Source: Candidatus Omnitrophota bacterium (GTDB lineage: Bacteria > Omnitrophota > Gorgyraeia > Zapsychrales > Fredricksoniimonadaceae). From it: DNA of 64,000 bases. Made by a program: the position numbers and the translations under genes. Shown one piece after another: positions 28,558 through 49,361 of this stretch (its first letter is position 1; every line of letters starts with the position of its first letter). Under the pieces are notes generated by a model that saw only the letters and a program-made list of their open reading frames with translations, had not been told where the DNA came from and did not search any database. The stretch covers positions 987 through 64,986 of the forward strand of contig JADFZK010000010.1 of assembly GCA_015232565.1 (NCBI GenBank), given 5' to 3'.

Positions 28558-29478
28558 TTATTTCAACTTACCGCGGATATGCACCAGGCATTTGCGGCAT
28601 TTGTCTTTTTTGTCGGCGGCGCGGCCCTGCATCTGGCCGTCGCACCAGGTATGATCGATCTCCCAGCACTTGGCCCCATGATTGGGAAAGGAAGGGCACT
28701 GCACCTGGCGTTCGGGCGGGCAATTAAGGATCTCCCAGCAGTTGGATTTCATGGTCGTCGCGCAATAAACCTTCAGATCGCCGGTGTGTTTGCGCATGTC
28801 CCCGATCAGGCGGTCCCAGGCTTCCTTGCTTTCCAGATCCTTGGGTAAAGGCCGCCGCTCGATCCGTTCCAGGAACATTTCCACCTTGCGGCAATGATCC
28901 CGCAGGGCATCGAGCAAATGTTTGGTGCGCACATTTACTTCATCATCAGGCATGGCATCGCGCCATACCTCAAAGCCGCCCAGCACACGGCCTTTCTTGT
29001 CGATCAACGGCCCCGCCGAAACCACTATCGCATGCTCACGGCCCATGCGGTCGTTCACTTTCACCCTCTTGCCCACCACCGACTTACGCGTCTTCATGGC
29101 CTGCTTGATAGCGCAATGCCGCTCACAAAGGTCGCTGTTAAAGATCTGCGCGCAATTTACCTTGCCCACTGCATCGTTGAGCTTTAATCCGGTGAATTCC
29201 AGGCAAGCCGGGTTCATGAACTGGATCTTCATGTCCTTGTCGACCACAAAAAACGGGTAGGTGGAAGCGCGCAGGATGCTAACGGCAAATGCGGCCATAT
29301 CCTCAAATTCACCGAAAGCCTTGGTTTTGGATGACAGGAAATCCAGGAAATCGTTCTGGGCTCCGTCTTCTTTAGGCTCGACGACCTTTTTACTGCCATG
29401 CGAGGCTTCGGTAGTCTTTAAGGGCTGTTTAAACTCCCTGAGCTCACCCAGGATCCTGGCCATGCGATCGAAATTCAT
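28558..29478 (-). CDS. PAS-domain protein with C-terminal Cys-rich (8 Cys) putative metal/redox-sensing module
   Basis: The PAS-like core is FFVVDKDMKIQFMNPACLEFTGL...GKVNCAQIF. The C-terminus reads NCWEILNCP..(5)C..(8)CWEIDHTWCDG..(12)CRKC. Confidence 0.55.
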   Translation of the reverse strand: MNFDRMARILGELREFKQPLKTTEASHGSKKVVEPKEDGAQNDFLDFLSSKTKAFGEFEDMAAFAVSILRASTYPFFVVDKDMKIQFMNPACLEFTGLKLNDAVGKVNCAQIFNSDLCERHCAIKQAMKTRKSVVGKRVKVNDRMGREHAIVVSAGPLIDKKGRVLGGFEVWRDAMPDDEVNVRTKHLLDALRDHCRKVEMFLERIERRPLPKDLESKEAWDRLIGDMRKHTGDLKVYCATTMKSNCWEILNCPPERQVQCPSFPNHGAKCWEIDHTWCDGQMQGRAADKKDKCRKCLVHIRGKLK

Positions 29479-30386
29479 TATCCGCCTCCCAAGTCAGTAT
29501 AAAGATCCACTGTGTCAATTTCCGCAAACGCGCCCGTAAGCGCGGCCCGCACAGCGCCCGTTCGCTCCAGCTCCTCGGCTACCAGAATGCCCGTCGGCCC
29601 CTGTAAAGTGATCCCCAGCCAAAACTTCTTGCCGACCCGCCGGAACTTGATATTGCGCACGCTGTAGGGCGCAAAGTCCCGGGCCACCAGCACTTCGATC
29701 CGCCGCCGGAACCCGGAATCCGGCACCTGGTCGAGCACCGCCTGCAGATTGCTGGTCCAGTGCCCCAGGGCATCTTTGACGATAATCGCCCCCACTATTA
29801 AAGCCGCAAACTTGTCGCAAATCGCGAACGCCGGCCCGATCTGCGCCACCAAGATCGCCACGATCACCGCGCCCGACGAGAAAAGATCCGCCCCGGCATG
29901 ACAGCCATTAGCCACCAATCCCGGGCTATCCAGCCGGGTGCCGGCACAAAAATTATAACGGTACATCATATACGTCAAGAAAGCCGACACTACCACGATC
30001 GGGAGCGCCATAATATCCGGCTGGACAAACTCCCGCCGGAAGATCGCCAGCAAATTTGACAACACAATATATAACCCCAGGCCGATGAGCACACTAAAAG
30101 CAGACAGCGCGGCAATGAACTCGGCTTTGGCATAACCAAAAGGAAAACGCTCGTCCGACTGCCGGCCGGAAAAAACCAGGCTGATCATAATAAGGATACT
30201 GGTAGCCACACAAGACAAGGACTGCAAGCCGTCCGCGATCAGCCCGGAACTGTTGGTAAATACCCCGCCCGCCAGCTTGAGTCCCGACATCACCACATTG
30301 CCGGCCACCGTCCACATAAGGATCTTTTTGGAACAACTCCGGCAGACACCCAGATCTTCCGACGGGCACATTGGCTGTTCGCTCAT
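29478..30386 (-). CDS. mamB: Cation diffusion facilitator (CDF) transporter, MamB-like (N-terminal CxxC)
   Basis: It has the CDF signature FGYAKAEF, six TM segments, a C-terminal cytoplasmic domain, and an N-terminal CRSCS motif like the CxxC at the MamB N-terminus. Confidence 0.65.
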   Translation of the reverse strand: MSEQPMCPSEDLGVCRSCSKKILMWTVAGNVVMSGLKLAGGVFTNSSGLIADGLQSLSCVATSILIMISLVFSGRQSDERFPFGYAKAEFIAALSAFSVLIGLGLYIVLSNLLAIFRREFVQPDIMALPIVVVSAFLTYMMYRYNFCAGTRLDSPGLVANGCHAGADLFSSGAVIVAILVAQIGPAFAICDKFAALIVGAIIVKDALGHWTSNLQAVLDQVPDSGFRRRIEVLVARDFAPYSVRNIKFRRVGKKFWLGITLQGPTGILVAEELERTGAVRAALTGAFAEIDTVDLYTDLGGG

Positions 30387-31273
30387 GCCGGCTCCTTTTG
30401 CACAAAACCCACCAAAAGCTCATGCGGCACCGTGAACTTTTTATGCAAAAGCTCCCGCACCTTGCGGCCCTGCGCCACCGCTTCTTTCATGGAAGACTCC
30501 CCGGCCACCTGCAGGGTCACCATGATCTCCAGCAAATGCCCCGACCGGCTGACCCGTAAGGCCGCCAGCCCGACCGCCGGCCGGATACGCAGGATCAAGG
30601 CCCGCACCTGACCCACGGTCTGCGGATCGCCCGACGCATCCATCAAACCCTTAAACGCCGACTTCAAAAAAGTGCAGCCGTAAATGATCAAAAAGAACGC
30701 GGTCAGGATCGCACAGGCGTAATCCAGCAAGGAAGAACCGTTCCGCGCTATGATCACCGCAACAACTGTCATAATGGAAAGCAAAAAGTCTGCATTCAGC
30801 AAAAATGAAACTTCCCGGGCATCGATCTCCGGAACATTCCGGCCCGCCGACCGGATCCACCACATGAGCCCCAGGCTGGCCAATGCCGTGGCCAGCGCCA
30901 CCCCCGCCGCCAGCATTTGCGGCGGATAAAGCGTATGAAAGAAAACCATATGCCCGATCGAGAACAAAAGCGCACTGGTGCTCAGGGTAATTATCATGGA
31001 CGTCCCCAGGACAATGATAAATTCCAGCTTGTCCGGATTAAAATACATCCGGCCCGCGCGCCCGGGATGCGAACGCCCGATCCGCACCAGGCTCACTACC
31101 GCGATAAACACCCCGAACAACGCAAATATACCCGCCACCAGCAGACACTTGGAACCGGCGATCACGCCGAACACCACCTTGAGCGCTCCGGAGGCCAGGA
31201 AGAAATAGAACAGCGCGTAAGCCGTTAATTCTTTCTGCTCTTTTACAGCGTCGAAACTCTTCTTTATCATCAC
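30383..31273 (-). CDS. mamM: Cation diffusion facilitator transporter, MamM-like
   Basis: It has CDF topology and is ATGA-coupled to the preceding CDF gene. It lacks an N-terminal CxxC. Confidence 0.55.
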   Translation of the reverse strand: MMIKKSFDAVKEQKELTAYALFYFFLASGALKVVFGVIAGSKCLLVAGIFALFGVFIAVVSLVRIGRSHPGRAGRMYFNPDKLEFIIVLGTSMIITLSTSALLFSIGHMVFFHTLYPPQMLAAGVALATALASLGLMWWIRSAGRNVPEIDAREVSFLLNADFLLSIMTVVAVIIARNGSSLLDYACAILTAFFLIIYGCTFLKSAFKGLMDASGDPQTVGQVRALILRIRPAVGLAALRVSRSGHLLEIMVTLQVAGESSMKEAVAQGRKVRELLHKKFTVPHELLVGFVQKEPA

Positions 31274-31298
31274 CCGTTCCTTGTATTAAATTGCGCCA

Positions 31299-32042
31299 TT
31301 AGGGCGCGGCTTGTAACCCCAGGATAGTATGGCAATTGGAACACACACCCCGAAAATTATGCGGCACCTGCGCGGTAGCCGCGGGAATAGCAATGTCGGG
31401 ATTAACCACATGGCAGTTCTCGCATACCCCGCGGAACTGGTGCAGCATCTGGGCATCACGAAATATCGGCGGCGGGCTTAAAGGCTGAACAGCCGCCACT
31501 CTTTGCAAACCGGTATTGCCCTGCACCGGCACCCGCAACATTCCCTGGCAGCGCGGACAGCGCGTATAACCGCGGTTCCAGTAGTTAGCGTCGTTAAAAA
31601 CAAAATTGCACTGCGGGCAACGTAAAGCTCCGGCGTTCTGGCCGGCCCCGGCTCCTAACCCCAACCCCATACCCATACCCGGCTGTCGGCCGGGAACCGG
31701 GCACGGCACCCAGGCCGCGGGCTGGGCGCAACCCGGCGTAAAACCCACCTGCTGGGCACACCCGGGAGCAAACGCCACCGGTAACGCACCCGTCGCCGGC
31801 GCCGGTGCGCCCGGAAAACACTGGGTCACTGTAGGACAAGTGGCACAGGCCGGCGGCACATATGCCGCCTGCTGGCCAGCGGCCGTACCCGCGCCAACCG
31901 GCTGTCCGGGCAATGGCACATCGCCGCCCTTGAACATGGCCACGCAAAACAACGTGACCAGTAAGGTGACCGTAATGCCCGCGATCCAGACATTCTTTGC
32001 ATTGGTCGTCGTACAACTTGTGCCGTCTTTATCGTGCTCCAT
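31299..32042 (-). CDS. mamT: Membrane-anchored double-magnetochrome c-type cytochrome (MamT-like) with zinc ribbon and Gly/Leu repeats
   Basis: One TM segment is followed by a GMGMGLGLGAGAG stretch and a zinc ribbon (RCPQCN...RCPRCQ). The C-terminus has two P..H..RG.C..CH motifs (PPIFRDAQMLHQFRGVCENCHVV and VPHNFRGVCSNCHTI). Confidence 0.7.
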   Translation of the reverse strand: MEHDKDGTSCTTTNAKNVWIAGITVTLLVTLFCVAMFKGGDVPLPGQPVGAGTAAGQQAAYVPPACATCPTVTQCFPGAPAPATGALPVAFAPGCAQQVGFTPGCAQPAAWVPCPVPGRQPGMGMGLGLGAGAGQNAGALRCPQCNFVFNDANYWNRGYTRCPRCQGMLRVPVQGNTGLQRVAAVQPLSPPPIFRDAQMLHQFRGVCENCHVVNPDIAIPAATAQVPHNFRGVCSNCHTILGLQAAP

Positions 32043-32075: not shown

Positions 32076-32522
32076 TTATATTCCGCCTGGACGGATACCC
32101 ACCCGGCCGTAAACCAGCGTTTGCTTGCCTGCCCGCTCTACCGTAAACGTTACCCGTTCATTGATCCCGGTGGTGCGGATCAAATACTGAGACTGGTCCT
32201 GGCTTATTACGCTCGCGCCATTCCAGCGTTGCAAAACATCGCCCTCGCGCAAACCCGCGCTCTCGGCGGGCGACCCCTTGAAGACCCGCGAGACCAGAAC
32301 GCCATTGGCCGCCATCAGGTCATACTGGCGCCGCACATCGGCCGTCAGCTCGATGGTCTCAACCCCCAGCCACAGCCGGGGGTCCACAGTCCGGAACCGG
32401 AAGTTCCACCCGTCAGCAAAAACCATCACCAGATAAACCACCGCCACCAGCACCAGGCCCGCGGCCATATTGATGATAGTGGCCTTGGAGCCCTCCTTGC
32501 TATACCGCCCGGACTGACTCAT
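32076..32522 (-). CDS. Small membrane-anchored PDZ-domain protein
   Basis: One TM segment is followed by a PDZ domain (GVLVSRVFKGSPAESAGLREGDVLQRWNG). Confidence 0.55.
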   Translation of the reverse strand: MSQSGRYSKEGSKATIINMAAGLVLVAVVYLVMVFADGWNFRFRTVDPRLWLGVETIELTADVRRQYDLMAANGVLVSRVFKGSPAESAGLREGDVLQRWNGASVISQDQSQYLIRTTGINERVTFTVERAGKQTLVYGRVGIRPGGI

Positions 32523-33361
32523 GGCTTCTTCCCCTCGGGACTTTTCGCGCCGATCCGAACTTTAACGCTATCGCACTTTAAACAATTAAAACAGCGCACA
32601 CACACCGAACTGCCGGGATCGTCGCTGATATTAATATCCACCGGACAAACCTCGCGGCATTTCTGGCAGTCCCGGCATTTCCCGGGGTCCACATCAAGCT
32701 GTAACAGGCTGTGCCGGTTAAAGAATCCGAATATCGCCCCCAGCGGGCACGCCAGCTTGCAGAACGGGCGCTTGGCAAAAACAAAAAAACCTACGAACAA
32801 GACCGCGATCAAAACCTTGATCACGAAAAGAAAACCCAGAGTGGAAGTGGCTACCGCCGGCTCACCGTAAACCGGAATGACCGGATTCCACAAGACCCAC
32901 GGAAAAGCCGCTTGCAATGTTCCCATCGGGCATAATTTAGAGAACGAAGTCTCCTGAGTTACCAGCGGGAACAGCACCACCAGCAAAGCCAGCACCAGAT
33001 AACGCGAAACCGCCAGTTTGAGAGGAATATGGATCTTGATACTTTTGATTTTGTACAACAAGTCCTGCATGAACCCGAAAGGGCACAACCAGCCGCAAGC
33101 CAGACTGCCCACTGTCACTCCGATAGCCGTCAGGTAACCTGCCACCAGGTAGGGGAACTTATGGATGGTCATAAAATGCTGGATGGTCCCGATGGGGCAG
33201 GAGAAGAACGCCGACGGACAACTGTGGCAATTTAAGAACGGCACGCACGCGCTTTTAAGCGGGCCCTGATAAACCTGCCGGGTCTTGAAGAACCCCAGAT
33301 ACAGGTTCGACAAAACCAGCGTGCACCACTGCACCGTTTCCCTTAATCTTTGCAGATCCAT
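32519..33361 (-). CDS. NapH/MauN-type polyferredoxin membrane protein (paralog of 14763..15650)
   Basis: The start is refined to MDLQRL at 33361 by alignment with the paralog. It has CHSCP, CGWLCPFG, CPMG and CPLG motifs. The C-terminus carries CRDCQKCREVCP and CVRCFNCLKC. Confidence 0.65.
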   Translation of the reverse strand: MDLQRLRETVQWCTLVLSNLYLGFFKTRQVYQGPLKSACVPFLNCHSCPSAFFSCPIGTIQHFMTIHKFPYLVAGYLTAIGVTVGSLACGWLCPFGFMQDLLYKIKSIKIHIPLKLAVSRYLVLALLVVLFPLVTQETSFSKLCPMGTLQAAFPWVLWNPVIPVYGEPAVATSTLGFLFVIKVLIAVLFVGFFVFAKRPFCKLACPLGAIFGFFNRHSLLQLDVDPGKCRDCQKCREVCPVDINISDDPGSSVCVRCFNCLKCDSVKVRIGAKSPEGKKP

Positions 33362-33365
33362 AAAC

Positions 33366-33497
33366 CTACTCCAGTCCAATGCAGGCCATACACATGGTCG
33401 CGCCGTTATTTTGCGTTTCCAGCGCATCGTTAGCGCTGTCGCCGATAAGGAATAAAATAAAGACCACAAAAAGAACCAGTATCACTTTTTTACCCAT
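33366..33497 (-). CDS. Small (43 aa) signal-peptide/membrane peptide, not in the ORF track
   Basis: It is preceded by a GGGAGG Shine-Dalgarno site. The translation is MGKKVILVLFVVFILFLIGDSANDALETQNNGATMCMACIGLE. Its stop lies 3 nt before the refined NapH-like start. Confidence 0.3.
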   Translation of the reverse strand: MGKKVILVLFVVFILFLIGDSANDALETQNNGATMCMACIGLE

Positions 33498-33528: not shown

Positions 33529-33882
33529 TTATTGCGCTTCAATCCAGGTCATATGTTCCTTACACCGCGGACAGACCGGAAAACCCATCTGACCGCAGGC
33601 CGGGCACACAAAGTTGCCGGCGAACCCGTTCCAGAACATAGCCACCTTGCAAGTGGGGCACATCGGCACGCCCTTCGAACCGCATTTAGGGCATACCGCG
33701 TTAACATTGTGCTGAATAACTTTCATAACCACGTTATTACGGATCAAAGCCCGCGCCGACAAGGACTGAAACTTGCCGACCGCGTAAGCGGTATATACCG
33801 ACAAGAACACCACCAGCAAGGCCCCGGTGATAATAAGCCGGCCGCGATCCTGTTCATTAATGCCCGACTTTAACTGCGCCAT
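33529..33882 (-). CDS. Membrane-anchored double zinc-ribbon protein
   Basis: One TM segment is followed by CPKCG..(6)CPTC and CPACG..(6)CPRC. Confidence 0.5.
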   Translation of the reverse strand: MAQLKSGINEQDRGRLIITGALLVVFLSVYTAYAVGKFQSLSARALIRNNVVMKVIQHNVNAVCPKCGSKGVPMCPTCKVAMFWNGFAGNFVCPACGQMGFPVCPRCKEHMTWIEAQ

Positions 33883-34592: not shown

Positions 34593-34764
34593 TTTATAAT
34601 TATGTCTTTTTGTAGATTTTCACAATGAGTATACAATTTTAACATTTCAGACCAAAAAAAATTACGTCCGCCTTAACAGTCTCACAACGATTCACAACCA
34701 CTCATGAAACCCAAATCATTACCTCATATGCCATGAACCCGAAACCCGCCGGTTGCAGTGTTGC

Positions 34765-35150: not shown

Positions 35151-35221
35151 TTGCAGGTGCGCCCACGCCTGTTTTCTACCAGCAACTCATGCCAATCATG
35201 CCACCACTAAACACTTTTGTT

Positions 35222-41526: not shown

Positions 41527-41575
41527 GCCTGAAACCTTACCTTAAATAAATCGTCAGCGCCAAAGCCTGTTACCC

Positions 41576-43966: not shown

Positions 43967-44230
43967 CTATTCTTGGGCGATCGTTTTGGGGTTAAGCTCG
44001 ATCCGTTCAATACCGATATTACATTCCTTACAAACCCACAGGTCCCTTTTCGCCGTACTCATATATATCCCGATCAACAAAAGCGGTACGCCCAGCACCG
44101 CGCCGATCCAGAATAAAGTTGCCAGCACGCCGGCCACGATCAGAAAACCGGCCACTTTCCGGTTATAGCGGGGACCTGAATAAAGCTGCATTACGCCGTT
44201 ACAATGTGAACAAACTATGGGTTTGGCCAT
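43967..44230 (-). CDS. Small zinc-ribbon membrane protein
   Basis: The motifs CSHCNG and CKECN flank one TM helix. Confidence 0.4.
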   Translation of the reverse strand: MAKPIVCSHCNGVMQLYSGPRYNRKVAGFLIVAGVLATLFWIGAVLGVPLLLIGIYMSTAKRDLWVCKECNIGIERIELNPKTIAQE

Positions 44231-44247
44231 GATCTTTCCTTCCGAAT

Positions 44248-44508
44248 TTAATCCTGATTGGCGATAAGAGCATCGATCGCTTTTTCTTTTTCCACATCAA
44301 TAACCACCGGCGCATTGTCGGCCCGCTCAACCGGAACAGGCGCCTGAGGCCGCGTTGTTCTGGTAACTGCCGCCGGCTGGGCCGCTTTCCTGCCTACCGG
44401 CTCGACGGAGTCCACCTTGGCAGGCTTCTTCCCCGTGAGCGACAAACCCACACCCACCGCCGCCGCTATAGCCGTAAAAGCCCAGATCGAAAATGGTTCC
44501 ATAGCCAA
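44248..44508 (-). CDS. Small single-TM protein with Pro/Ala-rich tail
   Basis: This 86-aa protein has an N-terminal TM segment (FSIWAFTAIAAAVGVGLSL). Confidence 0.35.
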   Translation of the reverse strand: MAMEPFSIWAFTAIAAAVGVGLSLTGKKPAKVDSVEPVGRKAAQPAAVTRTTRPQAPVPVERADNAPVVIDVEKEKAIDALIANQD

Positions 44509-44570: not shown

Positions 44571-46181
44571 TTACTTAATAGCCATATGCGCCACGTTCGG
44601 ATCCTGCGCGGCGTTATTTTGCGCCTGATTAACCTGCGCCTGGTAATTCGGGAACTGATTGTTGGGCATAGCATTCGCATTATTAACCGCACCCGCCGTC
44701 GGCGCTATTTGATGGCAATTCGAACATACCCCGCGATAATTATGCGGCAGTGAAGCGTTAGCGGGGATCGTGATATCCGGATTGACCACATGGCAGTTCT
44801 CGCACACTCCCCGGAACTGGTGGAGCATGGCGGCATCCCGGAAGATCGGCGGCGCATTACCCAGCCCGGCGGGCCCCGGCGCGGCATTCATCGCCCCGCC
44901 ATTTTGGGCCAGAGCCACCCGCGCGGCCGAAGCCGTGCGCTTCATGATCTGCCCGCAATTCGGGCAACGCGGAAATTCATTGGCGCCCTGCTGGGAATGC
45001 ATCAGCCAGTTACAATTGGGGCACTGGAACGTGCCCATCATATCGGGATTCGGGCTGAAGAAATTAGCCTGCTGGGCCGGCACTTCCGGCGCCTCAACAA
45101 AAGGATTTACGATCTTGTTCGGATTATACATATCCAGCGCCATCTGGCCGCCGCAATTGGGGCACGGGGGAAAAGCGTTGCCCTGGCGCGCCGCCTTCAT
45201 ACGCCAGTTGCACGTGGGGCACACAAAAGCCTGCTGGCCCCAGTTAAACAAACCCACCTGTTGCATTTGATTCGGCACCAGGCAATTAGGCTGGTTCATG
45301 ATCTGCATACCATAGTTCATGCCCTGGGCATTCTGCATACCCTGGCCAAAACCCGCTCCCGCTCCACCCTGGAGCATGCCGCCCTGAACCCTGGCCGGCA
45401 AAGGACACGGCACCTGGTTCATGCCCATGCCCTGTTGCACCGGAGCGCCCATCGGCATGCCCTGGTTCATACCGCCCTGCGGCATCTGGCCCGGCAGAGG
45501 ACACGGCACCTGATTCATGTTCATGCCCTGGCCTTGGGCCCGCATATTTTGCATCCCCACATCCGCCGGAATGCCCTGCGGCATCATATTCGACACCATC
45601 GGACAATTGGGCCCGATGCACGGCGGCATTCCCGGAGCCATAGCTCCCGGAGCTTGCGCCGGATTATTAGGCAACGGCGCTGCTGATATCCTTGCCTGGC
45701 GGTACAAAGAAATAACTTTCTGCGCCCGGCCCTGATACCCGCCGAAAACCCGGATGCCAAACTGCAGTAAAACATTGTAGGTCTGCTGATCCACACTGCC
45801 CACGATAACCGCTTCCTCGCCTTTACCGGCGATCAGATAGGTCAGCTGGGTGTTGGGCTGTTGCCCGAGGTACGGGTTCTTGATAACTTCCAAAAGCTTT
45901 TTGCTCAGGGGATTGACCACCAAAAAATACCGCGCTTCAGGTAAAGTGGGCGCCACCGTGGACGCCAGCGAGCGGCCATTGGCCGCGATCACGATCTTGC
46001 CGCAAGCCGGATTGCCCCGCGCCGCGTTCTGCGCTTCGGAAGAAAACAGTGCGTAAACCCCCACGATCAAGATCAGAATGATCGCGCCGAAAATAAAAAT
46101 TGTGTTAAGGTCGGCGCTCTGAAACCGGGCCTTGATATCATCCAAAGTGATCTTAACCAGCTTTTGCGGCGTTTTAACCAT
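44571..46181 (-). CDS. Multidomain membrane protein with NifX-like domain, Met/Gln/Gly-rich linker, two zinc ribbons and two C-terminal magnetochrome CXXCH motifs
   Basis: A TM segment is followed by KIVIAANGRSLASTVAPTLPEARYFLVVN...AVIVGSVDQQTYNVLLQFGIRVF, which is PF02579-like. Next come an M/Q/G/P-rich low-complexity region and two zinc ribbons (CPTCNW...CPNCGG and CPNCNW...CPNCGQ). The C-terminus has PPIFRDAAMLHQFRGVCENCHVV and LPHNYRGVCSNCHQI. Confidence 0.65.
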   Translation of the reverse strand: MVKTPQKLVKITLDDIKARFQSADLNTIFIFGAIILILIVGVYALFSSEAQNAARGNPACGKIVIAANGRSLASTVAPTLPEARYFLVVNPLSKKLLEVIKNPYLGQQPNTQLTYLIAGKGEEAVIVGSVDQQTYNVLLQFGIRVFGGYQGRAQKVISLYRQARISAAPLPNNPAQAPGAMAPGMPPCIGPNCPMVSNMMPQGIPADVGMQNMRAQGQGMNMNQVPCPLPGQMPQGGMNQGMPMGAPVQQGMGMNQVPCPLPARVQGGMLQGGAGAGFGQGMQNAQGMNYGMQIMNQPNCLVPNQMQQVGLFNWGQQAFVCPTCNWRMKAARQGNAFPPCPNCGGQMALDMYNPNKIVNPFVEAPEVPAQQANFFSPNPDMMGTFQCPNCNWLMHSQQGANEFPRCPNCGQIMKRTASAARVALAQNGGAMNAAPGPAGLGNAPPIFRDAAMLHQFRGVCENCHVVNPDITIPANASLPHNYRGVCSNCHQIAPTAGAVNNANAMPNNQFPNYQAQVNQAQNNAAQDPNVAHMAIK

Positions 46182-46250
46182 GTGAACTCCGTCGTTATTT
46201 TAATAATTACCAACCACCGGCACAACTGCAAGACTTGATACAAAATCGGC

Positions 46251-46844
46251 TTATCTGACCACCGGGCCGTACTGGAAAGCCTGGCCCAAAAGCGGCGAGC
46301 CTAACTGCCAACTGCCTTTATTCGGCCCCATCAGGGGGCCATATTTATAAGCGAAGGGAATACTGATGTATGTGTTCTCGCCGTTCCGAAAAATATCCAG
46401 CAAGATCCCGCCGGTGAACCGGGAGCCGTTCGCCACCTTGATAAACTCGCCCTGCGTAGGTACCGCCCGGCGGCTGATAGAAACAATAACGTCCCCGGTC
46501 TTAACCCCGTACTTTAAGGCTTCCTGGGTACCCTCGCTGATAACGAACATCCCGCGGATCCGGGCCGGGATCTTGAATTCTTTCCTGATGACTTTGGAAA
46601 GCTCGGCGACCTCCATACCCAGCCAGATCATACTGCCGCCCGGCTTTATGACTACCGGCGTAACCGCTTCCCGGGCCTCGGCCGCTTCCGGCAAAACTTC
46701 CGCCGCCCGCAAAGAAGCCACCAGCCAGGAAAACCCTATAACCACCGCCAGCACAATACCGCCCAAAACGAGCGGCTTATGCCGCGCAAACTCGACCGAG
46801 CGCTGGACTATTTTCTGCAGTGGGGTCTGAACTTTATGTTTCAT
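46251..46844 (-). CDS. Membrane-anchored PDZ-domain protein
   Basis: One TM segment is followed by a PDZ domain (GMFVISEGTQEALKYGVKTGDVIVSISRRAV). Confidence 0.5.
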   Translation of the reverse strand: MKHKVQTPLQKIVQRSVEFARHKPLVLGGIVLAVVIGFSWLVASLRAAEVLPEAAEAREAVTPVVIKPGGSMIWLGMEVAELSKVIRKEFKIPARIRGMFVISEGTQEALKYGVKTGDVIVSISRRAVPTQGEFIKVANGSRFTGGILLDIFRNGENTYISIPFAYKYGPLMGPNKGSWQLGSPLLGQAFQYGPVVR

Positions 46845-48214
46845 TGTAATTTAACCAGGACCTCGTCGGCCTTGCCATTGCGCAACAAGCGCACGTTCAC
46901 ATTGTCGCCCGCCTTGAAATGGGTGACCACTTTGGGTATGTCGCCGGTCTCGGTAATTTCCACTCCCGCTACGGACAGGATAATATCCCCGCGCATGATC
47001 CCCGCAATAGCCGCCGGCGAACCATCAAGAATGCGGTTCACCAGCACGCCCTTGCCGACGGGTATGCCATACTGCTTGGCAATAATGGAATCCACCGCCA
47101 TGACCTCGATACCAAAATGCACCGGCACCGGGCCTTGCTGAAGGTGGCTGAATTTGGTAAGCGCCACGTTCACCAGGCCTTTTTTATCCAGAGGCACGGC
47201 GTAGCTCTTGCCCAAATTGGCCGAAAGGAAATCTTTGCAATTATTAATGGGGATCGCGAACCCCGTACCGCTGAAAACACCCGTCGGCGCATAGATCGCT
47301 GTATTGATACCGATGACCTCGCCTTTCATGTTCACCAAGGGCCCGCCGGAAGAACCGCGGTTGATGGAAGCATCGGTCTGAAAAAGATCCTTGTAACGCA
47401 CACCGTCGATCACCATGGATTTGCGATTGCCGCTGATTATGCCGCTGGTCACCGTTTGCTCGATGCCGAACGGACTGCCCACCGCCACCACATAATCGCC
47501 CACCTGGGTCCAGCTGGAGTCACCGATCTTGGCCTCCACAAACGGCCCGTCGGTAGTTTTAAGCTTTAACAAGGCCAGGTCCGCATTGGCATCCTGCGCC
47601 ACGATCTCGGCCGGATAATCGCGGGCCGGAGTGCCGAACACCGTCACCATTACATCGGTGGCGTCCTGGGTAACGTGATAATTGGTCAGGATATAACCGC
47701 GATCGTCGACGAACACGCCGGAGCCGATCTTTTCGTAACCTTTGTTGGCAATAAATTTGTCGATCACGCCGTCAAAGGGCGGCACGAACTTGAGGTTCTG
47801 CGCATCGACCACCGGCTGGCGCGCCGCCCGCGGGATACGCCGGGCATGGATATCGCACACCGTCGGAATAATGGAATTTACCGCGTCCTTGAGAGAATCC
47901 TGAAACCCGCCGCCATTCACCTGCGCGGCCACCAGCTGCATGCCGCCGTTAGGCGTAGCCTTGGTAAGCCCCGCCCGCTGAAGGTTAGGATCCACGGCCA
48001 TGGCCGCCGGCATAACATTCCTGGGAAAAGACGGCTCCCCCACCATGGAGGTAACAGCCTTGGGCACATTGGGAGTTTCGAATTCGACGGGGGTAAAGAT
48101 CTCCTGCCTTTTAAGCACCACCCACAGCACCGACATTACCGAAACGCCCACCAGCCCCAGGATCCAGGGTCGGATAGACTGATTACAAAATTCGTCATTA
48201 TGATCGTCTGGCAT
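46841..48214 (-). CDS. mamE: HtrA/DegP-family serine protease with C-terminal PDZ domain, membrane-anchored (MamE/MamO-like)
   Basis: His is at LTNYHVT, Asp at ADLALLKL, and the nucleophile motif reads GSSGGPLVN. The PDZ domain is GVLVNRILDGSPAAIAGIMRGDIILSVAG. An N-terminal TM segment is present. Confidence 0.8.
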   Translation of the reverse strand: MPDDHNDEFCNQSIRPWILGLVGVSVMSVLWVVLKRQEIFTPVEFETPNVPKAVTSMVGEPSFPRNVMPAAMAVDPNLQRAGLTKATPNGGMQLVAAQVNGGGFQDSLKDAVNSIIPTVCDIHARRIPRAARQPVVDAQNLKFVPPFDGVIDKFIANKGYEKIGSGVFVDDRGYILTNYHVTQDATDVMVTVFGTPARDYPAEIVAQDANADLALLKLKTTDGPFVEAKIGDSSWTQVGDYVVAVGSPFGIEQTVTSGIISGNRKSMVIDGVRYKDLFQTDASINRGSSGGPLVNMKGEVIGINTAIYAPTGVFSGTGFAIPINNCKDFLSANLGKSYAVPLDKKGLVNVALTKFSHLQQGPVPVHFGIEVMAVDSIIAKQYGIPVGKGVLVNRILDGSPAAIAGIMRGDIILSVAGVEITETGDIPKVVTHFKAGDNVNVRLLRNGKADEVLVKLQ

Positions 48215-48228
48215 TCAAAAACCCCGCG

Positions 48229-48450
48229 TTAAAATAATACCTTGGCTGAACCGGTGGTATCCGCTATTACCGGAGCCGGAACGGTTTGCACCGCGCTCCG
48301 GGGCGCCTTATGTACGCGCTTCTTGGCCCGGCGCCGGGCCGCGCTGTCCTTGGTCTCAAAAAAGACCGCGCCCGCAATGACCACGCAAACCACCACGATC
48401 ACCATGAACCCGAACCACGGACTAAAACATTTTTCGCTCTTGCCAAACAT
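48229..48450 (-). CDS. Small single-TM protein with basic tail (MamL-type candidate)
   Basis: This 73-aa protein has one TM segment (FGFMVIVVVCVVIAGAVFF) followed by RRRAKKRVHK. Confidence 0.35.
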   Translation of the reverse strand: MFGKSEKCFSPWFGFMVIVVVCVVIAGAVFFETKDSAARRRAKKRVHKAPRSAVQTVPAPVIADTTGSAKVLF

Positions 48451-48505
48451 GGCTCACCCGTTTTTTACCGATTGATCAAAGCCGCTACGTTCAAGTCCTG
48501 AAAAA

Positions 48506-48676
48506 TCACTTCTTCTCTTTGAGGAATTTCAAACCAGTATTAAGAGCCACCAGACCGCCAATGAAAATAGCCAAAGGCATGGCGCCGCGCAGAAAATCGC
48601 CGAAATTATCCCACCAGCCAATGATACCGATAATGCCCAGAACTGCCGCGATCGAACCACCAATAATATGAACCAT
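48506..48676 (-). CDS. Small (56 aa) two-TM protein, MamI-like candidate; below the ORF-track size cutoff
   Basis: It is preceded by a GGAGAAACAC Shine-Dalgarno site before the ATG. The translation is MVHIIGGSIAAVLGIIGIIGWWDNFGDFLRGAMPLAIFIGGLVALNTGLKFLKEKK. It fills a gap between coupled genes. Confidence 0.4.
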   Translation of the reverse strand: MVHIIGGSIAAVLGIIGIIGWWDNFGDFLRGAMPLAIFIGGLVALNTGLKFLKEKK

Positions 48677-48723
48677 GTGTTTCTCCTTCCCTTACGAGTT
48701 AATGAAACCCTGCCCACTGTATT

Positions 48724-49128
48724 TTAAACGTGTTCTACCGGATGAACTTTATGCCCCAACGCGGCAATATATTTACCGGAAAGAAAAGCGCCCTGTTTCA
48801 CAATATTGCCAAACTTGTGTTTCTGCTTCTCCAGGAATTGCCCAACCGCTACCGGCTCCTTGGCCCGCGCACCAAGCTCCAGCAAAGCCGCAGCCGCGGG
48901 TTCAACCGGAACCGCAGACGAAACCGCACCCGCTGAAAAATCAGCAGGTTGATCATTAACATGACTTTTTTGGAGAAGTTCCAGAACAGCGGTGCGGGGT
49001 ATACGCTGATGGCCGCCCAGAGTAGCTTCGGAACGCAGCTTGTTCTTCTTGACCCAGTTAAGGACCGTGAAGCGGGTGACGTGAAATATTTTGGCAGTTT
49101 CAGAAGTAGTTAAATAATCTGTCTGCAT
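48724..49128 (-). CDS. Excisionase/MerR-type HTH (HTH_17) regulator, first gene of the biomineralization operon
   Basis: LTTSETAKIFHVTRFTVLNWVKKNKL...GGHQRIP is the same HTH_17 type as the N-terminus of 7827..8414. Confidence 0.6.
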   Translation of the reverse strand: MQTDYLTTSETAKIFHVTRFTVLNWVKKNKLRSEATLGGHQRIPRTAVLELLQKSHVNDQPADFSAGAVSSAVPVEPAAAALLELGARAKEPVAVGQFLEKQKHKFGNIVKQGAFLSGKYIAALGHKVHPVEHV

Positions 49129-49361
49129 TTAAGCTTGGGTCCTAACTCTTTATGAAGTATGAAATTATGTATGTGCTAAATTTACCCGAACAACGAATTT
49201 ATAAAGTATAAATTGCAATATTTAAAAGGCAACAATTTTTGCTGTTTTTGAATTTTGTAAAGTATATATATTCAATAAAAACAAGTCAAGAAAAGTTTTA
49301 AACAGAATTGATTTTTAAAGGCAGGATTGTTGAAATCGTTGAACTTCGGGCGGAGAGCGGA
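49129..49361. promoter_or_regulatory. Strongly AT-rich promoter region upstream of the long minus-strand operon
   Basis: About 200 bp are much more AT-rich than the flanks (taaattgcaatatttaaaaggcaacaatttttgctgtttttgaattttgtaaagtatatatattcaataaaaac). Confidence 0.5.

What the first reader, a model, noticed from the sequence alone, without database searches (positions are those of the whole stretch)
28558..49361. Magnetosome-type biomineralization gene cluster in a single ~20-kb minus-strand operon
The operon combines gene types that are the signature of magnetosome formation. It has a TPR protein (MamA-like, 39771..40586) and a LemA protein (MamQ-like, 38903..39709). It has four CDF transporters in two tandem pairs (29478..31273 and 40618..42472), three of them with the N-terminal CxxC seen in MamB. 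It has a membrane-anchored HtrA/PDZ protease (46841..48214). Three proteins end in paired P..H..RG.C..CH motifs that match the magnetochrome (MamP/E/T/X) heme-binding signature (31299..32042; 42734..43954; 44571..46181). Small MamI/L-like membrane proteins are also present. The operon is headed by an HTH regulator and a 200-bp AT-rich promoter. No mamK/actin-like or feoB gene was seen in the window. Several duplicated or non-canonical genes are interleaved (NifX-like, NapH-like, PDZ-permease, zinc-ribbon proteins). This suggests either a divergent lineage or a composite magnetite/greigite-type cluster.
Basis: partly seen in the sequence, partly recalled or inferred. Interest (0 to 1): 0.9.

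Follow-up and report, generated by a model that had tools for sequence, protein, structure and literature searches.

The report
Omnitrophota magnetosome gene cluster, already public
This is a real gene cluster for building magnetic iron-mineral organelles (magnetosomes) in an uncultured Omnitrophota bacterium, but this contig and this type of cluster are already public, so the finding is correct rather than new; the less expected thing is a selenium-dependent gene module next to it.

Summary
Window 28558-49128 carries 25 credible minus-strand genes. These include MamI, MamE-like HtrA, MamP, MamM, MamB, MamA, MamQ, PDZ-MamN and a TauE (MamO C-terminal-like) protein. Three proteins pass Pfam's magnetochrome threshold.

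The proteins are 100% identical to GenBank MBF0386914-932, from a 'Candidatus Omnitrophica' MAG on a 67,996-bp contig. They appear to belong to the same batch as the magnetically enriched MAGs of Lin et al. 2020. Gene order matches more than 20 Omnitrophota magnetosome clusters. The kind is therefore already known.

- It is probably two fused units, not one operon: M1 is mamAB-like (49128-35222) and M2 is a redox/second-CDF module (34592-28558).
- The second CDF pair is an old Omnitrophota paralogue pair, not evidence for a greigite cluster.
- mamK and feoB really are absent from the window.

Conserved neighbours extend the region. Upstream lie ApbE, an ion channel and a STAS/RsbW/SpoIIE switch. 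Downstream lies module M3: SelD, a double-cubane reductase, HtrA-like, NapH-like and NifX-like proteins, and a PDZ protein with a conserved in-frame UGA, followed by selC-selA-selB. I found no description of this PDZ selenoprotein. Its link to magnetosomes is plausible but unproven.

The parts
49129..49361 (.). AT-rich spacer upstream of the head gene; putative promoter region of M1
   Evidence: 29% GC against 55% for the window. The best minus-strand sigma-70-like matches are at 49289-49261 (10/12) and 49232-49205 (9/12). Consensus matches only; the spacer is not conserved at nucleotide level in relatives.
48724..49128 (-). HTH_17 (excisionase/MerR-like) DNA-binding protein heading M1
   Evidence: Pfam HTH_17 36.7 bits. 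An HTH_17 gene sits at the same position in most Omnitrophota loci.
48506..48676 (-). MamI homologue (56 aa, 2 TM)
   Evidence: NCBIfam MamI is the only hit: 46 bits, below the cutoff of 80. 62-93% identical in 22 of 26 related loci.
48229..48450 (-). Conserved small single-TM protein between MamI and MamE
   Evidence: Homologues at the same position in at least 11 loci. No family match.
46841..48214 (-). MamE-like membrane-anchored HtrA protease with one PDZ and no magnetochrome domain
   Evidence: Trypsin_2 110 bits plus PDZ. NCBIfam MamE 263 bits against DegP/HtrA 297. His/Asp/Ser motifs are intact.
46251..46844 (-). TM-anchored PDZ protein; its start overlaps the MamE gene by 4 nt
   Evidence: Weak PDZ_1/PDZ_2 hits; best NCBIfam hit is the PDZ region of MamP. 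Conserved in nearly all loci.
44571..46181 (-). TM - NifX-like domain - P/Q/G/M-rich linker - two Cys4 knuckles - two magnetochrome haem motifs
   Evidence: MCR 48.7 bits; Nitro_FeMo-Co 23 bits (below threshold); zinc-ribbon hits. Present in all Omnitrophota loci, with three tandem copies in L020.
44248..44508 (-). Small single-TM protein
   Evidence: Homologues in L011, L012 and L002. Annotated in GenBank, judging by accession numbering.
43967..44230 (-). Small TM protein with CxxC...CxxC
   Evidence: 46-74% identical in 23 of 26 loci, always directly upstream of mamP.
42734..43954 (-). MamP homologue (TM, two PDZ, two magnetochrome motifs)
   Evidence: MCR 48.9 bits; NCBIfam MamP 215 bits, below the cutoff of 300. 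100% identical to MBF0386929.1.
42462..42737 (-). Small 2-TM protein with a basic then acidic tail
   Evidence: Conserved between mamP and mamM in type-A loci. No significant family match.
41576..42472 (-). MamM-type CDF transporter
   Evidence: NCBIfam MamM 243 bits is the best hit (FieF 114). Site-A residues are C-D-H-D by alignment to YiiP.
40618..41526 (-). MamB-type CDF transporter
   Evidence: NCBIfam MamB 236 bits is the best hit (FieF 115). Site-A residues are H-D-E-D. Matches PDB MamM and MamB C-terminal domains.
39771..40586 (-). MamA homologue (TPR)
   Evidence: NCBIfam MamA 148 bits over the full model 4-204/204; the next family scores 70 bits.
38903..39709 (-). MamQ homologue (LemA)
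   Evidence: Pfam LemA 96 bits. NCBIfam MamQ is the only hit, at 98 bits.
37022..38824 (-). PDZ-MamN fusion (CitMHS/ArsB-type permease with an N-terminal TM and PDZ)
   Evidence: NCBIfam MamN 256 bits over 4-435/437; CitMHS 157 bits; PDZ_2 36 bits. 600 aa in relatives too.
35963..37003 (-). TauE/SafE permease, homologous to the C-terminal half of MamO
   Evidence: Pfam TauE 172 bits. NCBIfam MamO residues 373-648.
35222..35932 (-). TM - (GQGYYA)n low-complexity repeat - PDZ protein; last gene of M1
   Evidence: PDZ hits; repeat read directly from the sequence. Conserved position in type-A loci.
34593..35221 (.). 629-bp gap between M1 and M2, with no conserved ORF; junction of the two fused units
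   Evidence: 45% GC. L011 has an HTH_17 gene here. L028, L029 and L030 have M2 as a separate operon headed by that HTH. No remnant of the HTH is detectable in the gap.
33882..34592 (-). M2: TM - NifX-like domain - C-terminal Cys4 knuckle
   Evidence: Nitro_FeMo-Co 53.8 bits. Weak rubrerythrin-like hit at 185-215, below threshold. Conserved in L011, L015, L019 and L027-L030.
33529..33882 (-). M2: TM plus double Cys4 (zinc-ribbon-like) protein
   Evidence: Zinc-ribbon family hits, all below gathering score. Conserved position.
32519..33469 (-). M2: NapH-type membrane polyferredoxin
   Evidence: Fer4_5 55 bits. NCBIfam NapH/MauN 54 bits, below cutoff.
32076..32522 (-). M2: TM-anchored PDZ protein
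   Evidence: PDZ_2 40.5 bits.
31299..32042 (-). M2: TM - Cys4 knuckle - two magnetochrome motifs; C-terminus paralogous to that of 44571-46181
   Evidence: MCR 32.8 bits. Near-identical motif strings PPIFRDA.MLHQFRGVCENCHVVNPD in both proteins.
30383..31273 (-). M2: divergent MamM-like CDF with a degenerate transport site (CDF-M2)
   Evidence: Cation_efflux only 28 bits; best NCBIfam hit MamM at 86 bits. Site A is F-G-L-D. Forms its own clade in 7 genomes.
29478..30386 (-). M2: divergent MamB-like CDF (CDF-B2) with N-terminal CRSC
   Evidence: NCBIfam MamB 141 bits against FieF 76. Site A is Q-C-H-D. In the word-indexed search, the only close homologues (E<=1e-70) are Omnitrophota or unnamed metagenome proteins.
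28558..29478 (-). M2: PAS plus two-CW (Cys-rich) domain protein, with no output domain
   Evidence: PAS 44 bits. NCBIfam two_CW_domain 38 bits, above the cutoff of 35. Always the last gene of M2.
49362..53951 (-). Conserved upstream neighbours: ApbE flavin transferase, ion-channel protein, STAS, RsbW-like kinase, CHASE2-SpoIIE phosphatase
   Evidence: Pfam. Same genes next to M1 in most loci; in L028 they lie between M2 and M1, all co-directional.
23662..28419 (-). 1585-aa secreted protein with repeats; an insertion, not part of the cluster
   Evidence: Absent between the PAS and YceI genes in L027, L029 and L030. Its tetranucleotide profile is the outlier, r about 0.62 against 0.90-0.97 for the other segments. 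Only a weak HEAT_2 hit.
8662..22983 (-). Module M3: SelD-AhpD; double-cubane reductase plus two paralogues; activase ATPase; HtrA-like protease T1; 50-aa TM protein; NapH-like; NifX-like; PDZ selenoprotein; tRNA-Sec; SelA; SelB; Cys-nucleophile HtrA-like T2; methyltransferase
   Evidence: NCBIfam SelD 305 bits, double_cubane 389 bits (cutoff 350), CoA_E_activ 237 bits. The same order follows M2 in L027, L029 and L030, and recurs in L031-L035 and L040.
13826..14252 (-). TM-PDZ selenoprotein: in-frame TGA at 13923-13925, SECIS-like hairpin about 13885-13910
   Evidence: TGA at the same position, with a conserved read-through peptide, in 15 independent sequences. Predicted homologues all end at this residue. 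A 7-bp hairpin is kept in 5 of 5 sequences, with one compensatory change.
13688..13782 (-). tRNA-Sec (selC)
   Evidence: Rfam RF01852 75 bits. ARAGORN anticodon TCA.
7827..8414 (+). HTH_17 regulator with Cys-rich C-terminus; orthologue of the regulator that heads M2 in other genomes
   Evidence: 47-49% identity to the M2-head HTH of L011, L028 and L029. Same position and opposite strand at the end of M3 in L033 and in an ENA contig.

Best explanation
This is the magnetosome gene cluster of an uncultured Omnitrophota bacterium (class koll11). It directs formation of membrane-bounded magnetic iron-mineral crystals.

Shown here, by homology and synteny only:
- A mamAB-like unit M1: HTH, MamI, small TM protein, MamE-like, PDZ, NifX/Cys4/magnetochrome protein, two small TM proteins, MamP, small TM protein, MamM, MamB, MamA, MamQ, PDZ-MamN, TauE, PDZ.
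- Fused behind it, a second unit M2: NifX-like, Cys4 protein, NapH-like, PDZ, magnetochrome protein, CDF-M2, CDF-B2, PAS/two-CW.

Inferred from work on Magnetospirillum and Desulfovibrio magneticus (reviewed in PMC9840458, PMC7017999):
- MamI, MamQ and MamB shape the vesicle, and MamA coats it.
- The HtrA/PDZ proteins sort and process cargo.
- A MamB/MamM heterodimer brings Fe(II) into the lumen.
- MamN and TauE handle protons and anions.
- The three magnetochrome proteins oxidise Fe(II) to set the Fe(II)/Fe(III) ratio.

My own inference for M2: the NapH-type polyferredoxin links the quinone pool to the lumenal haems. The second CDF pair is a transporting subunit (site Q-C-H-D) with a partner that has lost its transport site (F-G-L-D).

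The mineral (magnetite or greigite) and the chain-organising genes cannot be read from this window.
For: - Magnetochrome domains are above Pfam threshold in three proteins.
- Mam models are the top NCBIfam hits for the A, B, M, N, P, Q and I homologues.
- Proteins are 100% identical to GenBank entries from a 'Candidatus Omnitrophica' MAG on a 67,996-bp contig.
- 21 of the 26 loci that encode a MamP relative are labelled Omnitrophota, most from the magnetically enriched MAGs of Lin et al. 2020. Many share this gene order (PMC7602337, PMC5955933).
- M2 is conserved as a unit in at least 5 genomes.
- All genes are intact and tightly spaced.
- Tetranucleotide composition matches the flanks, r = 0.90-0.93.
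- Nucleotide identity to the nearest relative is an even 72-82% across M1, M2 and M3, consistent with vertical inheritance.
Against: - No NCBIfam Mam model reaches its equivalog cutoff. Those cutoffs look tuned to close relatives of the cultured reference strains.
- mamK, mad28 and feoB are absent from the window.
- No Omnitrophota bacterium of this clade has been cultured, and nothing here shows expression or crystals.
- Assignment of this MAG to the Lin 2020 set rests on accession series and elimination, not on a direct record look-up.
- The mineral type is disputed: Fe3O4-type in PMC7602337, but grouped with the greigite set in PMC7449369.
Confidence: 0.88

Rival explanations
1. A composite cluster in which M2 (second CDF pair plus an extra magnetochrome protein) is the remnant or core of a greigite-type magnetosome gene set fused to a magnetite-type set.
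For: - Two MamB/MamM-like pairs and duplicated magnetochrome, NifX, NapH and PDZ genes lie in one array.
- Coexisting Fe3O4- and Fe3S4-type clusters are reported in two Omnitrophota bins.
- Omnitrophota Mam proteins grouped with the greigite set in one study (PMC7449369).
- CDF-B2 has a Cys in its transport site.
Against: - M2 has no second mamA, mamQ, mamI or mamE.
- M2 is present in many Omnitrophota MAGs that Lin et al. did not flag as Fe3S4-type: the loci I assign from WGS accession order to nDJH15_bin6, nCal1_bin2 and nMBP_bin3, and nCal2_bin1.
- CDF-B2 and CDF-M2 each form a separate deep clade next to, not inside, the MamB and MamM clades.
- Close homologues of CDF-B2 are found only in Omnitrophota or unnamed metagenome proteins.
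- No named greigite reference sequence could be included, so the phylogenetic test is incomplete.
Confidence: 0.06
2. A silent or relic magnetosome cluster in an organism that does not make magnetosomes, as described for Rhodovastum atsumiense (PMC9938234).
For: - mamK and feoB are missing from 64 kb.
- The M2 head regulator has been displaced about 26 kb away.
- A foreign-looking 4.8-kb gene is inserted behind M2.
- Related clusters occur in lake and groundwater MAGs that were not magnetically enriched (L003, L011, L014).
Against: - No frameshifts or truncated core genes; gaps are tight.
- Composition is native.
- Divergence from relatives is even across the modules at nucleotide level.
- The closest relatives come from magnetic collections (PMC7602337).
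- mamK is also absent within +/-10 kb of mamP in every Omnitrophota locus examined. Its absence here is therefore the lineage norm, not decay.
Confidence: 0.05
3. A generic metal-efflux and periplasmic-redox operon unrelated to magnetosomes.
For: - Individually, CDF, HtrA, TPR, LemA, NapH and PDZ proteins are all common housekeeping families.
- MamE scores lower than generic HtrA.
Against: - Magnetochrome domains in three proteins. By established knowledge this domain is known only from magnetosome proteins; I did not test that here.
- MamI, MamQ, MamA, MamN and MamP models are the best or only hits.
- The combination matches published magnetosome clusters.
Confidence: 0.01

Closest known systems
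Omnitrophota magnetosome gene clusters (Lin et al. 2018, PMC5955933; Lin et al. 2020, PMC7602337; Omnitrophica single-cell genome SCGC AG-290-C17 in Uzun et al. 2020, PMC7449369)
   Same: - Same gene set and order as L001, L003, L006, L011, L014, L026 and L027.
- Protein identity is 60-92%.
- The window's own proteins are GenBank entries from such a MAG.
   Different: - Here M2 is fused directly behind M1 without its own HTH gene. It shares this with L027, which I assign to nCal1_bin2. L011 keeps the HTH, and L028-L030 have M2 elsewhere.
- A 1585-aa gene is inserted after M2.
- Family kpj58rc relatives (L002, L007, L012, L016) instead have FixC/FixX after the HTH and haem-biosynthesis genes straight after mamP.
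mamAB-like plus mad clusters of Desulfobacterota and Nitrospirota (D. magneticus RS-1, strain FSS-1, Ca. Magnetobacterium; PMC7951924, PMC9840458)
   Same: - MamE without magnetochrome.
- Separate PDZ and magnetochrome proteins.
- A TauE-only MamO fragment.
- Redox accessory proteins; Mad6 and Mad9 are assigned redox roles in PMC9840458, and my recollection is that Mad6 is NapH-like.
   Different: - Orthology of the NapH-like and NifX-like genes to Mad6/Mad9 was not tested.
- No Mad or Man protein families were searched, because none of the four libraries available here is known to hold Mad or Man models. The only repeat protein that might recall Mad23 (23662-28419) proved to be an insertion.
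- mamK and mad28 are not next to the core.
- The PDZ-MamN fusion, the NifX-Cys4-magnetochrome fusion and the second CDF pair are not features I can find described for those clusters.
mamAB operon of Magnetospirillum (genetic reference system)
   Same: Homologues of MamI, E, P, M, B, A, Q and N, and of the TauE half of MamO.
   Different: - All scores fall below NCBIfam equivalog cutoffs.
- No hits to the NCBIfam models for MamK (absent), MamT (weak hits only) or MamX (weak hit only). No MamH-type (MFS) or MamK-type (actin) domain was found in any ORF. MamL, J, R, S, U, Y and mms genes were not specifically testable.
- MamE lacks haem motifs, and MamN carries a PDZ domain.
Planctomycetota magnetosome clusters (L023, L024)
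   Same: - Sister clades to the Omnitrophota MamB and MamM in the NJ tree, as also noted in PMC7602337.
- MamP C-terminal half is 61-65% identical.
   Different: - L023 has mamK directly after mamB. No Omnitrophota locus does.
- No M2-type CDF pair was seen there.
Double-cubane cluster protein systems and bacterial Sec-insertion operons (comparison for module M3)
   Same: - NF040772 is met above cutoff, and an activase ATPase is present.
- selD, selC, selA and selB are all present.
   Different: - These genes are joined in one operon with membrane-anchored HtrA-like, NapH-like, NifX-like and PDZ proteins that are paralogues of magnetosome-cluster genes.
- The PDZ protein itself carries the Sec codon. 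No NCBIfam model covers it.

Membership tests
Magnetosome gene cluster (mamAB-type core) | Clustered homologues of mamA, mamB, mamM, mamQ, mamI, mamE and mamP | tested here: met
   All seven lie within 38.9-48.7 kb on one strand. Mam models are the best NCBIfam hits except for MamE, where HtrA scores slightly higher.
Magnetosome gene cluster (mamAB-type core) | Magnetochrome (paired CXXCH) proteins | tested here: met
   PF18509 is above its gathering score in three proteins, with two motifs each.
Magnetosome gene cluster (mamAB-type core) | Actin-like mamK in or near the cluster | tested here: not met
   No MamK-type actin or MreB-family protein in any ORF; the only actin-fold protein is a BcrAD/HgdC-type activase. 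tblastn with a Planctomycetota MamK gives nothing at E<=10 in the window or in any Omnitrophota locus. It may lie on another contig.
Magnetosome gene cluster (mamAB-type core) | MamO (degenerate protease fused to TauE) | tested here: inconclusive
   The TauE half is a separate gene (35963-37003). PDZ-less HtrA-like genes lie 19-26 kb away in M3, with intact His/Asp/Ser or His/Asp/Cys. No fused MamO.
Magnetosome gene cluster (mamAB-type core) | NCBIfam equivalog cutoffs for the Mam proteins | tested here: not met
   MamA 148 against cutoff 200, MamB 236/350, MamM 243/350, MamQ 98/250, MamP 215/300, MamI 46/80, MamN 256/500, MamE 263/800. These are distant homologues, not equivalogs of the reference proteins.
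Magnetosome gene cluster (mamAB-type core) | Host makes magnetosomes or is magnetotactic | not testable with these tools
   Indirect only. Relatives, and probably this MAG, come from magnetically collected cells (PMC7602337).
Omnitrophota-type magnetosome cluster | Lineage-specific gene order shared with published Omnitrophota clusters | tested here: met
   Collinear with L001, L003, L006, L011, L014, L026 and L027 from the HTH gene to the last PDZ gene.
Omnitrophota-type magnetosome cluster | Sequence belongs to an Omnitrophota genome | tested here: met
   Four proteins are 100% identical to MBF0386914, MBF0386926, MBF0386929 and MBF0386932, labelled 'Candidatus Omnitrophica bacterium'. The exact bin (nHGR_bin18) is inferred by elimination only.
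Greigite-type (Fe3S4) magnetosome gene set | A second, near-complete set of mam genes | tested here: not met
   Only a CDF pair, one magnetochrome protein and NifX, NapH and PDZ genes are duplicated.
Greigite-type (Fe3S4) magnetosome gene set | Grouping with reference Fe3S4-type MamB/MamM in a phylogeny | not tested
   No named greigite references were obtainable. The NJ tree of locus-derived CDFs shows B2 and M2 as separate old clades.
Mad proteins (Mad6-like, Mad9-like) | Orthology to Desulfobacterota Mad6 and Mad9 | not tested
   Domain level only: NapH/Fer4_5 and Nitro_FeMo-Co. PMC9840458 describes Mad9 as ferredoxin-like, so the NifX-like genes may not be Mad9.
Bacterial selenoprotein (PDZ protein 13826-14252) | In-frame UGA conserved across homologues, with a conserved peptide after it | tested here: met
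   TGA at the identical position in 15 sequences, followed by TTNL[RSG]AI... and, wherever the contig allows, a true stop 31-40 codons later. More than 20 cluster representatives end exactly there.
Bacterial selenoprotein (PDZ protein 13826-14252) | SECIS-like hairpin just downstream of the UGA | tested here: met
   A 7-bp core stem 16 nt after the UGA in 5 of 5 sequences, with one CG-to-UA compensatory change. Caveats: the single-sequence energy is not exceptional (z = -0.42), and there is no Rfam SECIS match.
Bacterial selenoprotein (PDZ protein 13826-14252) | Sec machinery in the genome | tested here: met
   selD (305 bits), tRNA-Sec (75 bits), SelA and SelB are all in the same gene array.
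Bacterial selenoprotein (PDZ protein 13826-14252) | Selenium incorporation | not testable with these tools
   Needs 75Se labelling or mass spectrometry.

The most novel reading that the evidence does not exclude
In this Omnitrophota lineage, magnetosome formation draws on a selenium-dependent, low-potential redox module (M3). M3 encodes an ATP-driven double-cubane-cluster reductase and membrane-anchored HtrA-like, NapH-like and NifX-like proteins. It also encodes a previously undescribed PDZ selenoprotein with its own selD-selC-selA-selB genes. On this reading, M3 is co-regulated with the second CDF/magnetochrome unit and works in the same compartment. The selenoprotein itself is well supported. 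The functional link to magnetosomes is the uncertain step.
Probability: 0.3. Interest if true: 0.7.

Novelty: already known. Interest (0 to 1): 0.3.

Why it matters
As a magnetosome cluster it adds nothing new. The contig is in GenBank, and Omnitrophota clusters of this architecture were published in 2018 and 2020.

Four results from this check may be useful:
- A gene-by-gene map of the Omnitrophota cluster in three modules, showing which 'odd' genes are conserved parts.
- The second CDF pair is an old paralogue pair with one degenerate subunit, which argues against reading it as a greigite signature.
- mamK is consistently absent from the core locus in this phylum.
- A conserved PDZ selenoprotein sits with its own Sec machinery next to paralogues of magnetosome redox genes. 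If that module acts in biomineralization, selenium availability would become a testable variable for magnetosome formation in deep-branching lineages.

Tried and rejected
- Exact-sequence contig look-ups for MamB and MamP returned nothing. The source was identified through cluster membership instead.
- ORF 16065-17363 (+) was considered as a Mad28 or actin candidate. It was rejected: Arg/His-rich, no Pfam or PDB match, and antisense to a real HtrA-like gene.
- The 1585-aa protein (weak HEAT hit) was considered as a Mad23-like scaffold. It was rejected as an insertion: absent in L027, L029 and L030, and a compositional outlier.
- A remnant of the M2 head regulator was sought in the 629-bp gap. 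None was found. The orthologue is at 7827-8414.
- An Rfam search for a SECIS family gave no hit, and the single-sequence fold was not better than shuffles. The case for Sec rests on comparative evidence.
- Searching with a Planctomycetota MamK to locate an Omnitrophota mamK failed. The 120 listed hits are all 69% or more identical to the Planctomycetota query; the few that carry a name are Planctomycetota.
- The metagenome scan for PDZ-Sec loci found no magnetochrome motif on those mostly short contigs. This lowers, but does not remove, the M3-magnetosome link.
- Structure prediction was not used. No conclusion depended on it.

Full report
**1. What is there**

Between 28558 and 49128 the minus strand carries 27 mechanical ORFs, of which 25 are credible genes. 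Intergenic gaps run from -11 to 78 nt, except one gap of 629 nt at 34593-35221. The two ORFs inside that gap (34719-34919 and 34912-35166) have no homologues in any related locus. The run of GenBank accession numbers for this contig also leaves no room for them.

Pfam and NCBIfam scans of every ORF give the following order, 5' to 3':

| Coordinates | Assignment |
|---|---|
| 48724-49128 | HTH_17 protein |
| 48506-48676 | MamI |
| 48229-48450 | small TM protein |
| 46841-48214 | MamE-like HtrA protease with one PDZ |
| 46251-46844 | TM-PDZ protein |
| 44571-46181 | TM / NifX-like / Cys4 / two-magnetochrome protein |
| 44248-44508, 43967-44230 | two small TM proteins |
| 42734-43954 | MamP |
| 42462-42737 | small 2-TM protein |
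| 41576-42472 | MamM |
| 40618-41526 | MamB |
| 39771-40586 | MamA |
| 38903-39709 | MamQ |
| 37022-38824 | PDZ-MamN fusion |
| 35963-37003 | TauE permease (C-terminal half of MamO) |
| 35222-35932 | TM / GQY-repeat / PDZ protein |
| 34593-35221 | gap |
| 33882-34592 | NifX-like protein with a Cys4 knuckle |
| 33529-33882 | double-Cys4 protein |
| 32519-33469 | NapH-type polyferredoxin |
| 32076-32522 | TM-PDZ protein |
| 31299-32042 | second small magnetochrome protein |
| 30383-31273, 29478-30386 | two divergent CDFs |
| 28558-29478 | PAS plus two-CW protein |

**2. Is it more than chance?**

Pfam's magnetochrome model is passed above its gathering score by three proteins: 32.8, 48.9 and 48.7 bits against 30.4. 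Six of the eight CXXCH motifs in all six frames of the window lie in these three proteins.

For MamA, MamB, MamM, MamN, MamP, MamQ and MamI, the Mam model is the best or only NCBIfam hit and outranks housekeeping models. Examples are MamB 236 against FieF 115 bits, MamN 256 against ArsB 34, and MamA 148 against the next TPR family at 70. None reaches the equivalog cutoffs. The proteins are distant homologues of the reference proteins, as expected for a deep-branching lineage.

Three of the four CDFs have an N-terminal CxxC. The spacer 49129-49361 is 29% GC and holds the best minus-strand promoter-like matches. Such matches are not enriched over the region as a whole, so they are weak evidence.

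**3. Where it comes from**

MamP, MamB, CDF-B2 and the NifX/magnetochrome protein are 100% identical to GenBank MBF0386929, MBF0386926, MBF0386914 and MBF0386932. These are labelled 'Candidatus Omnitrophica bacterium', on a contig of 67,996 bp.

Relatives in the same searches carry HQL locus tags and JADF/JADG accession prefixes. These belong to the 168 MAGs that Lin et al. 2020 (PMC7602337) recovered from magnetically collected cells; 20 of them are Omnitrophota.

Comparing the 20 bins in their Supplementary Table 2 with the loci I retrieved leaves nHGR_bin18 as the likely source (genus GCA-2753745, GC 51%). The only other unmatched bin, nS315_bin24, has 37% GC. This is inference by elimination. 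It fits one further observation: the cluster region of the bin I assign to nCal1_bin2 is also about 4% richer in GC than its genome.

Omnitrophota magnetosome clusters with conserved content and order were first described by Lin et al. 2018 (PMC5955933).

**4. Comparison with relatives**

A genome scan with a MamP alignment returned 26 loci, 21 of them Omnitrophota. tblastn and ORF maps show two architectures:

- **Type A:** the window, L001, L003, L006, L011, L014, L020, L026 and L027. These have the whole of M1 in the same order.
- **Type B:** family kpj58rc (L002, L007, L012, L016). These have FixC/FixX after the HTH and a run of haem-biosynthesis genes directly after mamP, with mamM, mamB, mamA and mamQ elsewhere.

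Look-ups around CDF-B2 homologues show that the part from NifX-like to PAS (M2) is a conserved unit:

- In L028, L029 and L030 it is a separate operon headed by its own HTH_17 gene with a Cys-rich tail.
- In L011 that HTH sits between M1 and M2.
- In the window and in L027, M2 follows M1 without it.

The window's orthologue of that regulator is at 7827-8414 on the other strand (48% identity). The '20-kb operon' is therefore most likely two units joined at the 629-bp gap.

Upstream, five genes accompany M1 in most loci and lie between M2 and M1 in L028: ApbE, an ion-channel protein, STAS, an RsbW-like kinase and a CHASE2-SpoIIE phosphatase (49362-53951).

**5. The second CDF pair and the greigite idea**

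An NJ tree of all CDFs from the loci shows four clades: MamM, MamB, CDF-M2 and CDF-B2. Each of the extra clades contains six or seven Omnitrophota genomes on long branches. Planctomycetota sequences are sister to the canonical clades (no bootstrap).

Close homologues of CDF-B2 are found only in Omnitrophota or unnamed metagenome proteins.

Aligned to YiiP (D45/D49/H153/D157), the transport-site residues are:

| Protein | Site A residues |
|---|---|
| MamB | H-D-E-D |
| MamM | C-D-H-D |
| CDF-B2 | Q-C-H-D |
| CDF-M2 | F-G-L-D |

CDF-M2 has lost three of the four ligands and scores only 28 bits on the Pfam model. It is probably a non-transporting partner.

M2 has no second mamA, mamQ, mamI or mamE, and it occurs in bins that Lin et al. 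did not flag as Fe3S4-type. I therefore reject the composite magnetite/greigite reading. The caveat is that no named greigite references could be put in the tree.

The mineral made by Omnitrophota remains disputed in the literature (PMC7602337 against PMC7449369).

**6. mamK and feoB**

No ORF in the window has a MamK-type actin or a FeoB domain. The only actin-fold protein is a BcrAD/HgdC-type activase.

A MamK from a Planctomycetota magnetosome locus finds nothing in the window or in any Omnitrophota locus at E<=10 (L023 14187-15344; family confirmed; search). The literature reports MamK and Mad28 in Omnitrophota (PMC10653835). They are presumably encoded elsewhere in the genome.

**7. Composition**

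The cluster is not a compositional island. GC is 54.5% against 55.2% for the window. Tetranucleotide profiles of M1 and M2 correlate with both flanks at r = 0.90-0.93.

The outlier is the 1585-aa gene at 23662-28419 (r about 0.62). That gene is also missing at this position in L027, L029 and L030, so it is an insertion and not part of the cluster.

**8. How it most likely works**

What is shown here is homology, domain architecture and conserved linkage. The functions are transferred from genetics in Magnetospirillum and D. magneticus (PMC9840458, PMC7017999):

- vesicle formation: MamI, MamQ, MamB;
- coat: MamA;
- sorting and proteolysis: MamE and the PDZ proteins;
- Fe(II) import: MamB/MamM;
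- proton and anion handling: MamN and TauE;
- Fe(II) oxidation: the magnetochrome haems of MamP and the two NifX/Cys4-associated proteins.

For M2, I infer that a quinol-linked NapH-type iron-sulfur protein feeds or drains the lumenal haems, working alongside a second iron transporter. I infer that the PAS/two-CW protein and the HTH/Cys-rich regulator provide redox-responsive control. None of this is tested.

**9. Outside the given coordinates: module M3**

Downstream of the insertion lies a tightly packed minus-strand array:

| Coordinates | Gene |
|---|---|
| 21391-22983 | SelD fused to an AhpD-like domain (305 bits) |
| 20162-21361 | double-cubane-cluster reductase (389 bits, cutoff 350) |
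| 19135-20202, 17720-19138 | two divergent paralogues of it |
| 16889-17716 | activase ATPase |
| 15966-16892 | membrane-anchored HtrA-like protease without PDZ |
| 15727-15879 | 50-aa TM protein |
| 14763-15650 | second NapH-like protein |
| 14293-14763 | third NifX-like protein |
| 13826-14252 | TM-PDZ protein |
| 13688-13782 | tRNA-Sec |
| 12296-about 13680 | SelA |
| 10374-12320 | SelB |
| 9428-10336 | second PDZ-less HtrA-like protein |
| 8662-9288 | methyltransferase |

In the second HtrA-like protein, the nucleophile position is Cys in all three orthologues examined.

The same order follows M2 in L027, L029 and L030. It recurs in a different order of Omnitrophota (L033, nW3_bin14) and in metagenome contigs.

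**10. The PDZ selenoprotein**

The PDZ gene stops at a TGA in the middle of its PDZ domain, and the reading frame continues. Four lines of evidence point to selenocysteine:

- An exhaustive HMMER search showed that more than 20 cluster representatives, mutually 50% identical or less, all end at the aligned residue ('...INRING[RKQSA]').
- In 14 homologous DNA sequences the codon is always TGA. It is always followed by TTN/SL[RSG]AI...VR..R.G.N and, wherever the contig allows, a true stop.
- A hairpin beginning 16 nt after the UGA is kept in five of five sequences, with one compensatory change.
- tRNA-Sec, selA and selB follow immediately.

This is the standard comparative signature of a selenoprotein. 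No NCBIfam model covers it. No paper in the held library connects selenoproteins with magnetosome clusters.

The link to magnetosomes is indirect:

- Its genes are paralogous to M1 and M2 genes.
- It is adjacent to M2 in three species.
- The M2-type regulator sits at its end.
- There is direct adjacency to magnetochrome genes in L034 (Fur-FeoB-FeoA-MCR-PAS-SelD-...) and in L035.

Against the link, ten further metagenome contigs carry the module without any magnetochrome motif, though most of them are short.

**11. Verdict**

The finding is correct and its main interpretation is supported. It rediscovers a published kind of cluster on a public contig, so novelty is 'already known' and interest is low. 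The M3 selenoprotein module is the only part that a specialist might not expect. I rate it separately as the novel case.

Noticed in passing
window 13826-14252 (-), TGA at 13923-13925; also L031, L033-L035, L037-L046: A TM-anchored PDZ protein with a conserved in-frame UGA (motif INRING[RK]-U-TTNLRAIG), a conserved read-through tail and a SECIS-like hairpin. Gene callers truncate it everywhere. No curated family exists and I found no literature on it.
   Followed up: yes
window 8662-22983 (-): A conserved operon joins selD-AhpD, a double-cubane-cluster reductase with its activase ATPase, HtrA-like, NapH-like and NifX-like proteins, the PDZ selenoprotein and selC-selA-selB. It follows the magnetosome unit M2 in three species. 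In L034 and L035 it is next to magnetochrome genes.
   Followed up: partly
window 9428-10336 (-); L033 10182-11060; L034 14084-14986: An HtrA-fold protein after selB keeps the His and Asp motifs but has Cys at the nucleophile position (PG[SVT]CGG/APL) in all three orthologues. The paralogue T1 has Ser.
   Followed up: partly
window 23662-28419 (-): A 1585-aa secreted protein with about ten 45-residue repeats (V..ALG.LY..MVEQG.MTI..LE.RL). It is a compositional outlier and is absent at this position in relatives. Function unknown.
   Followed up: partly
L002, L007, L012, L016 (family kpj58rc), e.g. L012 11167-21048: In these relatives a full set of haem-biosynthesis genes (read by eye from the translations as a siroheme-synthase N-terminal-like protein, HemA, HemC, CobA/HemD, two radical-SAM AhbC/D-like proteins, HemB, two Lrp-like AhbA/B-like proteins and HemL) follows directly after the magnetochrome gene mamP. 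FixC/FixX follow the head HTH gene.
   Followed up: partly
window 49362-53951 (-): ApbE flavin transferase, an ion-channel protein and a STAS/RsbW/CHASE2-SpoIIE partner-switching set are syntenic with the magnetosome cluster across Omnitrophota families. In L028 they are embedded between M2 and M1.
   Followed up: partly
window 28558-29478 (-) and 7827-8414 (+): Both the PAS protein that ends M2 and the HTH regulator that heads M2 in other genomes carry Cys-rich CW-type C-terminal regions. The two-CW domain is above cutoff in the PAS protein. This may be a shared redox or metal-sensing device.
   Followed up: no
window 55037-56433 (+) and 16065-17363 (+): Long plus-strand ORFs without any family match. 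The second is clearly antisense to a real minus-strand gene. The first set probably lies antisense to ABC-permease genes between CysA (53961-55031) and the binding protein (56704-57726).
   Followed up: partly
L023 14187-15344 (Phycisphaeraceae MAG): A MamK-family gene directly follows mamB in this Planctomycetota magnetosome locus, unlike in any Omnitrophota locus examined.
   Followed up: yes
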